From: Longimicrobiales bacterium
GTDB taxonomy: Bacteria > Gemmatimonadota > Gemmatimonadetes > Longimicrobiales > Gaopeijiaceae
DNA: 60,623 bases
Assembly: GCA_965197725.1 (NCBI GenBank)
Contig: CBDANQ010000024.1
Location: forward strand, 1-60,623
Direction of reading: 5' to 3'
Within the stretch, counting starts at the first letter, position 1. Each line of letters begins with the position of its first letter. Positions 36,471-42,400 of the stretch are shown here, one piece after another. Position numbers: made by a program.

Positions 36471-39400
36471 TCAGTATACTCGCGGCTACCCCATCTCAGA
36501 CACAATGTCGTCACCGACCCCCGGGATGCCGCCGGGGTCTTGAAATGGGCGGTGATCGAGATGGGGCGCCGCTACACGCTGCTGAAAGCCAATAACGTGC
36601 GTTCGATCGGCGAGTTCAACCAGAAGGTCCGGGCTGGGGTCACGGTGAAGCGTTCGGAGCCGAGAGGCCCCGAAGGGGACGAGAACCGCTGGATCCACGA
36701 CGAAGGAATTCTGCCCTCTATCGTGGTCGTGGTGGACGAGCTGGCTGACCTCATGATGACGGTACAGAGCGAGGTCGAAAAGCCGCTCACCCAGCTCGCC
36801 CAAAAAGGGCGCGCGATCGGCATCCACCTCATCGTCGCGACCCAGCGTCCGTCCGTGAACATCATCACCGGTCTCATCAAGGCGAATTTCCCGACGCGCA
36901 TCGCGTTTCGGGTCGCGTCCAAGACCGACTCGCGCACGATCCTCGACATGAACGGCGCCGATGCGCTGCTCGGCAACGGGGACATGCTCTTCCTGCCCCC
37001 CGGGGAGAGCGACCCGGTCCGGATCCAAGGTGCCTACCTCCCGACGGAGGACACCGAGCGGCTCATGGGGTGGTACAGGGAGCTCATCGAGCGTCATCAG
37101 GGAGAGGGCGACCTCCCGGACACGGGTCTCGAGACAGACATCCTCGAAGAGCTACGCCGTCAGGAACTCGACGACGCCACCGTCGCCGACAACGAGATGG
37201 CCGGCGATTGGGACGAACTTTTTCAGGCTGCGGCTGAGGTGTGCATACAGAACCAGACCGGTTCGACGTCGCTGCTGCAGCGACGCCTGAGCATCGGCTA
37301 CGGCCGTGCCGCCCGCATCGTGGATCAGCTGTTCGATGCCGGCGTGATCGGAGGTTCGGATGGGTCGAAGGGACGCGAGGTGCTCATGTCGATGGACGAG
37401 CTCGAAGCGTTCATGCGCGGGGGCGGTAATTGATGCTTTTTAGGGTCGCATGGGTGGCCGGACTGGCCCTGTCGATCGTCGGCATGCGCCCACAGTTGGC
37501 TCTTGCGCAGGCGGTGGAGGGGCTCTCCCTGCTCGAGGCGACCGCCGCGCGCTACGAGCGCGTAACCGGCTTCTGCGCGGACTTCACACAGCACCTTTCC
37601 GTGCCGTTGCTCGGCGATGAGCGGACCGGGACCGGGCAGATGTGTCAGGCGCGCCCGAACAGATTCGCGATGCGGTTCTCCGATCCTGAGGGTGATCTCG
37701 TGGTCGTCGATGGAGAGTGGGTCTGGCTTTACTACCCGAGCCTGGACCCGAAACAGGTCATCAGGTTCGCGATGGCGGACGGGGCCGGTGCCTACGACCT
37801 CCACAAAGAGCTCCTGGAGGATCCGGCCACCAAGTATGACGTCACATACGAGGCGGTCGACGAAGTCGCGGGACGCCAGACGCATCGCCTCCGACTGGTC
37901 CCACGCGCCCGGTCCTCGTACGAGGCGGCGGTGATCTGGATCGACCAACAAGAGCCCGTTCTCCGTCAGATCCGCATCGAGGACGAAAACGGCACCGTGC
38001 GGACGATCACGCTCGAGCGCGTTGATCTCGACCCCATCGCGGTGGACGACGACTGGTTCACGTTCACGCCGCCGCCCGGCTCGCTGGTCATTTCTAGATG
38101 ACTAGAAGGGTGATCGGAAAGGCGGGTGGGCCGCCATGTGCCCAGCACCGGGATGAAGGGAACAGACGAGTGCGTGGGTTACGGTGGCACGGCCCCATCT
38201 CCGTCGTTGGAGCTCCTAGGACCACCGCCTCCGGCGGCGGTGCCCGCGACGGCTATGGCGTCGTCGCTCCGCGACCCGCGCGACGCGCGGGTGCCCCCTG
38301 GAGCCGTGGCACCCGGGGACCCGTGCGACAGCACGGGTGGCGGCCCGCCCGCCTTTCCGATCACCCTTCTAGAGCCGCGCGCACGTGAGTCGGACGCGCG
38401 ACCTCCCGGTCTTCCCGCTCACGCCCGACCCGGTGCGGCCTGACGTCTCGCCGGACGTCGCGCCCGTACGCCACGAGTTGGTGGCTGCGGGATCACTCGA
38501 CGGGCCACGCATCGCGCTGATTACGTTGGGATGCGACAAGAACAGTGTCGACTCGGAGCGCATGATGGCGGTGCTGCTAGGCCACGGAGCCCACGTGTCG
38601 AGTGACGTGGACGGCTCTGACGTGGTGATCGTGAACACGTGCGGCTTCATCCAGCAAGCCAAAGAACAGTCGATCGAGACGATCCTGGAGGCTTGCGATC
38701 TCAAGGAGCGCGGGCACCTGAAGGCGGTGGTCGCCGTGGGGTGCCTGGTCGAGCGCTACAAGCGAGATCTCCAGGAAGAGATTCCCGAGGTCGATCTCTT
38801 CATGGGACTGACTGAGCTCCAGGGGCTCGTGCCCGAGTTGCGCTCAAGGGGACTGCTGCCCGACTCCGAAGCGGTGCCCATGATGGAGCGCCCACTGCGC
38901 GTGCTCTCCACCGAGACCCCGCACACGTCGTACTTGAAGATCAGCGAGGGGTGCGACCACACGTGCGCGTTCTGCGCGATTCCGCTCATGAGGGGACTAC
39001 ACAGGTCTCAGCCGGTGGCCGAGCTGGTGCGCGAAGCGGCGGGCCTCGGCGCTCGGGGAGTAAAGGAGATCAACATCGTCTCGCAGGACACGACGTGGTA
39101 CGGGCGAGACGCCCGCCGCCGTGACCGGGAAGCCCTGCTGCTCCCCGAGCTGCTGCGCGCGCTCATCGACGGTACAGATGTGCCCTGGTACCGCCTCTTC
39201 TACATGTATCCGTCCGGGATCACTCGCGAGATGGTCGAGCTGATCGCAGGTGAGGCACGGATCGTGCCGTATCTCGACATGCCGATTCAGCACGGGAGCG
39301 ATCGCATGCTCCAGCTCATGCGCAGGCCCGAACGTCGAGAGACCATTCGGGAGCGCGTGGGATGGCTGCGCGACGCGATCCCGGACCTCACGCTCCGTAC

Positions 39401-42400
39401 GACGGTGATCATTGGGTTCCCTGGTGAAAAGGACGACGACTTCAGAGAGATGCGCGACCTGCTGGAAGAGATCCGATTCGAGCGTGTGGGCGCCTTCACC
39501 TACTCCGTGGAGGAGGGCACCCGCGCGGCCGACATGGGTGGGCAACTGGAACAGCCCGTGATGAACGAACGGCTCGAGGAACTGATGGAGGTTCAGCGGG
39601 ACATCAGCTTCGAAAAGAACTTCGCCCTGGTCGGTCAGCACACGACCGCGCTCGTCGACCACCGACTCGAGGACGACGCAGAGTTCGTCGCGGTCGCGCA
39701 CACGGTTGCTCAGGCGCACGAGGTCGACGGCGTTACCAACCTCATTGCGGTGGAGGGGATCGAGCCTGGCAGCATGATCGAGGTCGAGATCGTAGACGCG
39801 TTCGACTACGACCTGGTCGCGAAAATCACGGGCAGGTGACGAGAAGGGAGGCAGATGCGGTTTAGTATGTGGGTGATCGTGACGGCGGTGGTGGGCGTTG
39901 TAGCTGGGCCGAACGGGGCCAAGGGCCAGGAGCCCGCCGACTTCGACTACGAGAACCTGTCTTTGCGCGGCCTGGGCTTCGAGTGGGGCTACTCGTACCC
40001 GTCCCGCGTGGAGCAGACCCAGAGCTACGGCTTGCGCATCGACATGGGATACCTCGGGCCGGGACTCAGGATCGTACCCAGCGTGACGTATTGGAAGGCC
40101 CCGTTTCAGGCGGCCGAGATCGAAGAGCTCGAGGCGCGAGTCGCCGGGCTCGTTCAGGCCCAGTCGGGTGGCGCGGCTCCGAGCGTCGACCTCGGAACGA
40201 TCGAGTGGAGCGATGTCGCGGTTGCCCTCGACGCCCATGTCGTGTGGTCGATCCCCTTGGGGTTCCTGTCGTTCGGTGGCCTAGGAATTGCCGCGCACGT
40301 GATGAACGGCGATGGCGCCGCCATCAACGGCACCTTCGTCGAGGATCTCTTGGATTCGGTGGCTGCAGGCTTCAACCTGCATGCTGGCCTCGAGTATCCG
40401 GTGAGCGACCGGTTCCGGCTCAACGGGCAGGGACGGTACGAGGTACTCGGAGATCTACAGTACTTCCAGATGAGGTTTGGAGCCCAGCTCATGATCGGCG
40501 AAAACGCGCCAGGAGAGCGGAGTCGGTGACGGACGGCGCGGCGCCCATCCGCTTGGCCGTGATCGGGACGGGGGCCATTAGTCAGGTTGTACACGTTCCG
40601 ATTCTCGCGGAGCGTGAGGACGTCGATCTCGTTGCGCTCGCCGATACGGACGCTCCCAAAGCGGATGCGATCGCCCGCCGCTTCGACGTCGCCGAGGTGA
40701 TCGAGCCGGAGGAGGCGCTGACGCGGGACGACCTCGACGGAGTGGTCCTGTGCACGCCTAACCACACACACGAAGAGATGGCGCTTCAAGCGCTCGAAGC
40801 GGGCAAGCACGTGTTCGTCGAACGCCCGATCGCGACCTCGCCGGTGGGCGCCGCCCGGGTGATCGAGGCGGTAAAGACCGCCGGGACTTACCTCTCGGTC
40901 GGACATCAGCACCGGTTCCGCCCGGAGGTCGCCGCACTGCGAAGTTTCGTCGCCGGTGGCGAGCTGGGGGAGCTATATGCGGTGCGCGGAGGTTGGCTTA
41001 CGCGCCGCGTGCCGCTCCTGCGCCCGACCTGGCGTCAGAACAAGGCCGCATCCGGCGGGGGAGCGATGATCGATCTGGGTGTGCCAGCACTGGACCTCTG
41101 CTTGTGGATGGTCGGTTTCCCCAACATTCAAACCGTCTCGTGCGTAGCACACGGAGGCGACTACGAGGTTGAGGACGATGCCACTCTGATGTTCCAGAGT
41201 GAGGACGGAGTCATCTTCTCGATCGAGGTCAGCAACCGGCTCTTCGCTGGCAAGGATCGGTATTACGCGCGGGTGTTGGGCACTGAGGGTTCAGGTTCGT
41301 TCCCACCACTGGAGGTCTACAAGCAGCTTGGCGGCCGCCCGCTCGAGGTCACGCCGCGCCAGCCGCGGCCCCGGGGAGGCGAGAACCCGTATACCAACGC
41401 ATATCGACGCCTGATCGACCAGTTCGTACGCGGCGTCTCGGGACGCAGCGAGATCGAGGTTCCTGAGGAGCAAGTAGTGCTCATGCGTTTGATCGAGGCC
41501 GCGTATGAATCCGCTGAAGCAGGCCACGCGGTAGCGCTCTGAAGGCTGTTGAAGAAGTACAGTGGGCCGCCCAGCACCATGATGTAATGAACATACGAGT
41601 GTGTCGGTTGCGGTGGCACGGCCCCATCTCCGTCGTTGGAGCTCCTCGGACCACCGCCTTCGGCGGCGGTGCCCACGACGGCTATGCCTTCGAAGCTCCG
41701 CGACCCGCGCAAATGCGCGGGTGCCCTCTAGGGCCGTGGCACCCGGGTACCCGTGCCTTAGCACGGGTGGCGGCCCGCTGTACTTCTTCAACAGCCTTCT
41801 CGTGAACGACGGTGCGCCGGCCTCCACTCGCGGCGGCCGGTTTGCCAGCTTGAAGATCCTGCTCTGGCCTAGGCCGGGGGGAACGACTGCTTCCGGCGGT
41901 TTCCGCGGTCTTGCTCGCGCTCTCTTTCCCGCCTCTGCATCCGCTGATCCTCCCGTTCGTCGGGCTGGTGCCGTTGGCGGTGTGGGTGCGCGGCCTCCCT
42001 TCGGAAAGCGAAGGACGGCGCGCGGCAGTCCGCGGGGCGACGGTGTTCGGAGTCGTGTACTTCGGGATTCTCTTCTACTGGATTCTGGTGGCCCTGATCT
42101 GGTTCTCGAAGCTCGCGATCCTCGCGTTCCTCGGCTCCTGGCTGGGGCTGACCGGGGTCGCCGTGCTCTTCGGCTGGATGCTGCACCGCGCCGTGCACAC
42201 GGTCAGCGTCCCGCTCTGGCTCGCGCTCCCCATCACGTGGACCGCCGCCGAGTGGTTCCGCGCGCACCTGCCGGACACGCTGGCGTTCTCGTGGCTCGGC
42301 CTGGGGTCGTCGCTGTCGGGATTTCCGGAGCTGATCGGTTTCGCGGAGATCATCGGGGCGCGTGGACTGACGTTCTGGCTCGCTTTGGTGAACGGGCTCG

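What a model noticed while it worked through the whole genome (the two positions that open the first line are those of the whole stretch)
38107..41796. Modular MITE-like elements with two end types and shuffled hairpin cassettes inserted at TAG stop codons
About 22 non-coding elements or remnants of 40-280 bp carry one of two unrelated terminal inverted repeats but share one pool of internal hairpin modules in varying order and number. They sit at CTAG/TTAG targets, mostly on stop codons, and are present or absent at orthologous sites in congeners. No transposase with these ends was seen here.
Evidence so far: Twelve elements with both ends (8 type A, 4 type B; call 61), 22 sites in all; 13 of 22 lie within 15 bp of a gene's 3' end. 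Orthologous sites: C24:41544 empty in G001, G002 and G003; C31:59003 empty in G001, G002 and G003; C31:52772 filled in G002, a remnant in G001, empty in G003 and G004; C24:38107 a remnant in G002, empty in G003. The type B end occurs in 16 of 61 family genomes, up to 41 matches, with 0 in the reversed-pattern control. An active IS has inserted into one copy (C24:3316, calls 61, 64). Paper searches 71 and 72 found nothing.
(Added by a program. Inside this text positions count along the whole contig: contig position 1 is position 1 of the stretch shown here. "Call 12" and the like, gene names such as g00115 and contig names such as C1 are that model's own, and its searches are not shown. The text may have been shortened before it was handed on; [...] marks where a part breaks off. 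The agent that wrote the report below was given it as the finding of a first reader that could run no searches.)

Follow-up and report, generated by a model that had tools for sequence, protein, structure and literature searches.

The report
Mini-transposons sharing cargo, swapping ends
These repeats are small non-coding jumping elements that carry one conserved, folded DNA cargo between ends borrowed from different insertion sequences; the parts are not shuffled, and what the folded cargo does is still untested.

Summary
(1) Order is fixed: all 11 two-ended copies over 140 bp fit one 422-bp master collinearly. They are deletion derivatives with up to six optional hairpins. (2) There are three end types. 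A and B are related (11/18), and the 'IS-interrupted' copy at 3154-3450 is an intact type C element. (3) Only 3 of 14 two-ended copies sit on a TAG stop, as expected for non-coding CTAG sites (27%). Partners were found in other genomes: end B equals the end of an intact IS1182-like element (18/18), and end C that of an IS5 element (18/18). None was found for A. The interior is two back-to-back copies of a 107-nt hairpin unit, with compensatory changes in 31 of 47 pairs. It is absent from the three IS tested and occurs in 23 of 120 genomes sampled from a second phylum, inside many other end types. Interior trees reject A and B as clades. The scan noted this shared-core pattern before on other DNA, and a 2009 Geobacter paper lists what looks like the same unit. 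Verdict: type II MITE with conserved cargo and exchangeable ends.

The parts
38106..38368 (+). Type A element, 263 bp, internally deleted (unit 1 lost, unit 2 kept), CTAG on both sides (38102-38105, 38369-38372), 4 nt after the TGA stop of lolA
   Evidence: collinear with master, 88% of interior matched
38102..38136 (+). Left arm of type A element (target, end A, subterminal stem)
   Evidence: I1
38338..38372 (-). Right arm of type A element
   Evidence: I1
38220..38245 (+). Optional hairpin cassette (GACC-stem-loop-GGTGCCC form) in the central loop of unit 2 (slot 5)
   Evidence: read; slot defined
38273..38296 (+). Optional hairpin cassette, next slot
38318..38342 (+). Optional hairpin cassette, last slot
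41542..41798 (+). Type B element, 257 bp, unit 2 kept; end identical over 18 nt to an intact IS1182-like element; eroded target flanks; its first base completes the TGA stop of the Gfo/Idh/MocA gene (TAG in the empty site)
41541..41571 (+). Left arm of type B element
   Evidence: I3
41769..41799 (-). Right arm of type B element
   Evidence: I3
3154..3450 (+). Type C element, 297 bp, intact, both units, no cassettes, on the TAG stop of a TPR gene; end identical over 18 nt to an IS5-family element
   Evidence: (I2)
3181..3286 (-). Cargo unit 1
   Evidence: model R1, 95.7 bits (this copy was in the training set)
3319..3423 (+). Cargo unit 2
   Evidence: model R1, 88.1 bits (in the training set)
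3457..4951 (-). Resident young IS1182-like IS (about 40 copies in G000, CTAG target) abutting the type C element; its ends match B at only 12-13 of 18
49914..49950 (+). Collapsed type A remnant between two CTAG
57778..57793 (+). Solo type A end after CTAG; supplies the TGA stop of the predicted upstream gene; ortholog not checked
37430..38101 (+). lolA-like gene, upstream neighbour
   Evidence: Pfam LolA
38385..39839 (+). Radical SAM methylthiotransferase (UPF0004, Radical_SAM, TRAM_2; RimO-like by recall)
40526..41542 (+). Gfo/Idh/MocA oxidoreductase gene, upstream neighbour of type B element
41911..43443 (+). Apolipoprotein N-acyltransferase (lnt), downstream neighbour

Best explanation
A type II MITE family whose lasting part is the cargo, not the ends. 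Shown: the cargo is two inverted copies of a 107-nt irregular hairpin, closed by a subterminal stem and an 18-bp IS end, at CTAG-type sites; ends B and C equal ends of DUF772-DDE insertion sequences (IS1182-like and IS5). Inferred (likely): those transposases move it in trans by ordinary DDE transposition; copies then decay by internal deletion and are rewritten by gene conversion among copies, which gives the mosaic look and can put one interior into shells with other ends; new shells arise when another CTAG-targeting IS lands on the same site and its end is captured and copied to the other arm. Copies survive mainly at gene 3' ends because other CTAG sites are costly. Inferred (weak): the fold is kept because it serves the element. 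My ranking: RNA fold that makes insertion into transcribed operons tolerable in either orientation, about 0.45; DNA cruciform or single-strand fold that aids excision or capture by transposases, about 0.35; host-serving RNA or other, about 0.2.
For: Intact 1501-bp IS with B ends and CTAG on both sides (L248); 31 of 36 metagenome relatives of that transposase have a B-like end, 14-18 of 18. IS5 element with end C (L317, 18/18; L316, 17/18). Shuffled-end control maximum 14/18, 0 of 200 reach 18. Fixed order. Interior tree rejects A as a clade (p-AU 0.0002) and B (0.00003). 31 of 47 interior pairs changed on both sides against 19.1 in shuffles, 0 of 500; slid controls 9-14. No unit in the three IS loci tested. 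Unit in 24 of 121 genomes of G118's phylum (23 of 120 without unpublished G551), with many end types, some matching other IS1182-like ends at 16/18. Three orthologous copies are 80-90% alike while flanks are 90-96%, and no closer than paralogs. C/A hybrid exists.
Against: No IS with ends A, B or C in G000-G004, so mobilisation is inferred from other genomes. No partner for end A. Flanks of old copies lean to a TA duplication with terminal G..C, 25 against 2 with 40 uninformative, which fits IS630 or IS427-type enzymes better than a 4-bp duplication. Strand evidence is mixed: a conserved G-U at two core positions favours one strand (54 and 26 G-U, 0 A-C) but Watson-Crick helices hold 59 A-C against 22 G-U. 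Covariation could come from arm-to-arm copying without selection; kin are not independent. End capture was not observed. Trees of converted mosaics are unreliable in detail. No expression data (one search gave contigs only).
Confidence: 0.72

Rival explanations
1. IS630-family (TA-duplicating) transposases move these elements, as proposed for RUP and Correia elements.
For: Flank tally favours TA duplication 25 to 2; an IS630 occupies the orthologous CTAG of C61:58896 in G001; IS630 are in 28 of 101 family genomes, G000 included.
Against: Best IS630 end matches B 12/18, C 11/18, A 9/18, at the level of shuffled ends (mean about 12), against 18/18 for DUF772 elements.
Confidence: 0.08
2. Independent hairpin modules are shuffled into shells in any order (first reader; BOX-like mosaic).
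For: Copies differ in which segments and cassettes they hold; the cassette form sits at other positions in other genera; one nested element seen (L104).
Against: All 11 G000 copies over 140 bp and all genus copies fit one master in one orientation and beat the best of 10 block-shuffled masters; full-length masters with A, B and C ends share the order.
Confidence: 0.04
3. The cargo is a REP/REPIN-like substrate of an HUH (Y1) transposase and the IS-like ends are incidental.
For: Two inverted imperfect hairpins with a GTAG..CTAC tip in many copies and optional small hairpins resemble REPIN anatomy (resemblance recalled).
Against: PF01797 in 0 of 5 genomes of this family tested and 1 of 5 unit-rich genomes of the other phylum; cassettes are not enriched outside elements (12 against 10 in a reversed genome).
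Confidence: 0.06
4. The cargo is a domesticated host regulatory RNA (the reading given for the Geobacter family in 2009) that happens to be spread by MITE shells.
For: Strong covariation across phyla; position at 3' ends inside co-oriented gene runs.
Against: Site occupancy differs between congeners, copies decay and lose units at orthologous sites, neighbours are functionally unrelated, no Rfam match.
Confidence: 0.1

Closest known systems
Type II prokaryotic MITEs (Minnick 2024, PMC10969869, passages read)
   Same: Under 500 bp, non-coding, similarity to an IS confined to the ends, stable fold, decay gradient.
   Different: Here the interior is the conserved part across phyla and the ends vary between IS families, the reverse of the usual case; GC-rich.
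MITEPsy1 of Pseudomonas syringae (PMC3189936, passages read)
   Same: IS5-type ends, CTAG or YTAA target, mobilised in trans.
   Different: 100 nt, one end type, 4-nt duplication shown by experiment; no shared two-unit cargo reported in the passages seen.
Geobacter metallireducens Gmet_R1001-R1024 'predicted short RNA elements' (PMC2700814, passages and supplement S4 read)
   Same: 112-116-nt intergenic multicopy unit; by eye the same motif order and central CGTAGC-loop-GCTACG hairpin; one inverted pair 40 nt apart.
   Different: Described as RNAs, no ends or transposase named; homology judged by eye only, the genome was not searched with my model.
BOX elements of streptococci (PMC3049150, passages read)
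   Same: Fixed outer modules with optional inner modules; S. suis has two end types around one boxB module.
   Different: BOX varies by tandem boxB number; here by deletion and single hairpin cassettes; ends here match named IS families.
Correia/NEMIS, ERIC, RUP (PMC2229807, first third read)
   Same: Small folded MITEs, optional internal segment, effects on co-transcribed mRNA reported.
   Different: TA termini, IS630 link for RUP, AT-rich; no sequence link tested here.
IS1272 (IS1182 family) stem-loop-replacing transposition (PMC5678879, PMC4923244, passages read)
   Same: An IS1182-family enzyme that acts on inverted repeats; a possible route to end replacement.
   Different: IS1272 leaves no duplication and deletes the hairpin; these elements have CTAG on both sides.

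Membership tests
Type II MITE | Terminal inverted repeats | tested here: met
Type II MITE | Short, no transposase | tested here: met
   49-426 bp; coding capacity judged from size and gene calls
Type II MITE | Ends shared with an autonomous IS | tested here: met
   B and C 18/18; not met for A
Type II MITE | Interior unrelated to the IS | tested here: met
   no unit match in L248, L261, L317
Type II MITE | Target duplication and filled/empty sites | tested here: met
   length of duplication unresolved
Type II MITE | Mobilisation in trans | not testable with these tools
   needs an assay
IS1182/IS5 (DUF772-DDE) partner | Transposase family of the end donors | tested here: met
   L248: DUF772 + DDE_Tnp_1; NCBIfam IS1182 258.9 bits (cut-off 270, just under), IS5_4 184 (cut-off 140). 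L317: IS5_4 324 bits
IS1182/IS5 (DUF772-DDE) partner | 4-bp YTAR duplication (recalled for IS5; reported for MITEPsy1) | tested here: inconclusive
   28 CTAG/CTAG; informative flanks lean to TA
IS630-type MITE | Ends matching an IS630 | tested here: not met
   at most 12/18 among 31 IS630 loci
REP/REPIN | Cognate HUH (Y1_Tnp) gene in the genome | tested here: not met
BOX-like shuffled modular repeat | Variable module order or tandem module number | tested here: not met
Known Rfam RNA family | Match at gathering score | tested here: not met
Geobacter Gmet_R1 family | Homology of the unit | tested here: inconclusive
   by-eye motif order only

The most novel reading that the evidence does not exclude
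The 107-nt unit is an old, cross-phylum, non-coding hyperparasite with a function of its own: a folded RNA or single-stranded DNA module that makes its carrier tolerated or more mobile, and that persists by repeatedly capturing the ends of whichever CTAG-targeting transposase is active (IS5, several IS1182 lineages, perhaps others). The optional hairpins would be a third tier riding on it.
Probability: 0.45. Interest if true: 0.85.

Novelty: new variant of a known kind. Interest (0 to 1): 0.6.

Why it matters
MITE interiors are usually treated as inert filler between transposase-specific ends. Here one covarying interior outlives its ends across at least two phyla. With two named transposase partners for the same cargo in one family, the question of what a MITE interior is for becomes directly testable: the same cargo, two enzymes, paired mutants. 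It also warns that RNA-motif searches will call this unit a regulatory RNA, and that 'insertion at stop codons' can follow from a CTAG target alone.

Tried and rejected
Rfam: nothing near gathering score. Plasmid blastn with L030: no match. Viral contigs: 0 for ends B, C (strict) and A and for a core pattern; a relaxed C pattern gave 8 loci, IS5-like starts and small elements with other interiors. DDE loci of G001-G004 and G013 carry no A, B or C end. IS630 as mobiliser: favoured, dropped. Partner for end A: 6 hits in 301 order genomes and 20 candidate stretches held no transposase; the 18/18 'match' of A in L208 is a MITE copy, not an IS end. HUH model. Promoter scan: 0 sites; 3 terminator-like sites against 1.5 expected. 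Sequencing runs: shares of 0.07-0.24, contigs only, no statement on expression or habitat. One spurious pair (G000:C2) was dropped. Two IS1182 ends abut element targets; I estimate about one by chance, so this is no evidence of targeting. Paper searches found no description of a shared cargo with exchangeable IS ends; the library lacks most subscription journals, and the MITE catalogue supplements of PMC11602168 were not opened and may hold these elements.
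Full report
Check of the observation. Both named elements are there: 38106-38368 with 35-nt arms and 41542-41798 with 31-nt arms. Profile scans of the genome (G000) give 14 two-ended copies (8 AA, 4 BB, 1 CC, 1 C/A hybrid) and 43 sites at score >=20; reversed profiles give 0 for A and B at >=18. The copy at 3154-3450 is complete, and the IS1182-like element at 3457-4951 lies beside it. A and B agree at 11 of 18 positions in register, and an IS end and a MITE end lie between them in sequence (L269, L352).

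Order is fixed. G001 holds full-length copies of 341-426 bp with A, B or C ends and the same segment order. With free long gaps, all 11 G000 two-ended copies over 140 bp align to one 422-bp master in one orientation, 70-92% of the interior matched, and each beats the best of 10 block-shuffled masters (a few distant copies from other genera do not beat the control). The window's A and B copies have lost the left half. At orthologous sites G001 has a full-length left end where the window has the deleted copy (L029, L028) and a 422-bp copy where G000 keeps a 35-bp end. Six slots take an optional 24-30-nt hairpin of the form GACC-stem-loop-GGTGCCC in place of 4-6 nt; L185 has all six, most copies from other genera none. 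A strict pattern finds 15 inside elements, 12 outside and 10 in a reversed genome, so they are not a free repeat family here. Three orthologous pairs are 80, 89 and 90% alike against 90-96% in flanks, and 20 of 21, 13 of 22 and 10 of 22 paralogs are closer: interiors are rewritten in place, or sites are refilled.

Stop codons. With a self-trained gene caller (2604 genes), 3 of 14 two-ended copies and 6 of 43 sites have a TAG stop as target; orthologs add 41542. Among non-coding CTAG sites 27% are stops (p 0.77). Within -30 to +20 nt of a 3' end lie 10 of 14, against 19% of all CTAG (p 0.00004), 38% of tolerated CTAG (p 0.013), 58% of CTAG in spacers up to 300 nt (p 0.42) and 6 of 31 young IS1182 copies with the same target (p 0.002). 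This fits survival at gene ends; a weak preference is not excluded. Ends A and B hold a TGA that closes the predicted upstream frame at 9 sites.

Transposase partners. One locus had end B followed by a transposase start. G117 holds an intact 1501-bp element with B-type ends (right end 18/18) and CTAG on both sides, encoding a 475-aa DUF772-DDE protein closest to the IS1182 model. Relatives occur in 10 of 201 family genomes at E <= 1e-20, seven with B-like ends (G100, which shows the same contig as G115 and is counted once, G045, G048, G056, G042, G039, G071), none in the window's genus. Of 36 metagenome relatives, 31 show a B-like end. End C equals the left end of an IS5-family element in G033 (18/18) and nearly one in G135 (17/18). 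Shuffled ends reach at most 14/18. IS630 ends reach 12/18. No partner for A was found. The resident IS1182 matches B at 12-13/18 and is 31% identical to the partner over 121 residues, so G000's copies are probably not mobile now (inference). The duplication length is open: 28 of 67 copies have CTAG on both sides, and informative flanks favour TA with terminal G..C by 25 to 2, while two resident IS1182 copies show clean 4-bp duplications.

The cargo. Without cassettes the element is about 270-300 bp: an outer stem closing two long hairpins. The left half, reverse-complemented, aligns with the right half. RNAalifold finds changes on both sides in 56 of 76 pairs; for the interior alone 31 of 47, against 19.1 in shuffles (0 of 500) and 9-14 for slid partners (the structure was derived from these sequences and kin are not independent). 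The window's A copy folds at z = -9.8. A tree of 40 interiors needs 8 end changes (minimum 2) and rejects A (p-AU 0.0002) and B (0.00003) as clades. Both arms of one copy share private changes more than permuted arms for A (10 against 5.0, p 0.002) and C (p 0.02), not for B (p 0.62). A covariance model of the unit hits 5 of 121 genomes of the own phylum and 24 of 121 of the phylum of G118, a Thermoanaerobaculales bin, Acidobacteriota by NCBI (23 of 120 without unpublished G551). Only 32 candidates per genome were scored, so these are lower bounds. Those copies keep the back-to-back layout inside at least ten other end types by my count, most beginning at CTAG; G504 and G557 each hold two types. 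Several ends match other IS1182-like elements at 16/18 (L335, L326, L323), others match nothing at hand. Strand evidence is mixed. The unit is not in the three IS loci tested, and HUH transposases are mostly missing.

Mechanism. Shown: anatomy, fixed order, end identity with two IS families, polymorphic sites, covariation, discordance of ends and interior. Inferred: DDE mobilisation in trans; decay by deletion; gene conversion as the source of mosaics and end exchange; capture of new ends at shared CTAG sites, for which the C/A hybrid is the only trace. Least certain: why the fold is kept. Two inverted units put one of each sense on either strand, which suits an orientation-independent role; both target copies lie between co-oriented genes, which suits an RNA that spares downstream expression. 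IS1182-family enzymes that act on stem-loops (PMC5678879, PMC4923244; passages) keep a DNA-level role open.

Known comparisons. It meets the tested features of a type II MITE (PMC10969869; passages). MITEPsy1 is the nearest experimental model for ends and target (PMC3189936; passages). The Geobacter Gmet_R1 family (PMC2700814; passages and supplement S4) looks like the same unit by eye. BOX elements of S. suis show two end types around one module (PMC3049150; passages). Ten paper searches found no account of a cross-phylum cargo with exchangeable IS ends. Earlier notes of this scan report the same pattern in other genomes, mostly ascribed to IS630 (consulted); they are not independent support. 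What this window adds is exact partners for two end types on one cargo, the collinearity test and the stop-codon control.

Verdict: real; new variant of a known kind; interest 0.6.

Noticed in passing
window 3457-4951 and about 40 sites in G000: Recent burst of one IS1182-like element, copies 99.3-99.9% identical, nearly all at CTAG; its reading frame runs past the IS end into flanking DNA.
   Followed up: partly
L208 2727-3869 (G001:C3): An IS630 occupies the same CTAG at which G000 and G002 have a type A element: three states at one site.
   Followed up: partly
L104 2204-2746: A second complete cargo with a further end type is nested in the central loop of unit 2, the same loop that takes a hairpin cassette in this genus.
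   Followed up: no
G000 C58:11358-11406 and C56:65536-65584: 49-bp minimal elements: a C/A hybrid and an A/A hairpin with no cargo.
   Followed up: no
window 57778-57793; C15:36007; C49:15559; L345; L346: Solo ends supply in-frame stop codons, or lie in frame at the start of long ORFs; possible small changes to protein termini.
   Followed up: no
window 38140-38175 and equivalents: An AT-richer, highly variable 25-nt spacer between the two units in this genus; only 3-4 nt in most other lineages.
   Followed up: no
window 25689-26045: Tandem 51-nt repeat inside a 664-codon ORF; also 57-69-nt repeats at 31177-31370.
   Followed up: no
G000 C38:9950-10780; C9, C22, C44: One IS5-type element with 16-bp ends and three IS630 copies; ends do not match A, B or C.
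   Followed up: partly
L337, L339, L343: Prophage or viral contigs hold 150-160-bp elements with C-like ends and interiors unlike this cargo.
   Followed up: no
G000 C40:47425, C40:47755, C51:69000: Three short cassette-like hairpins outside any element end.
   Followed up: no
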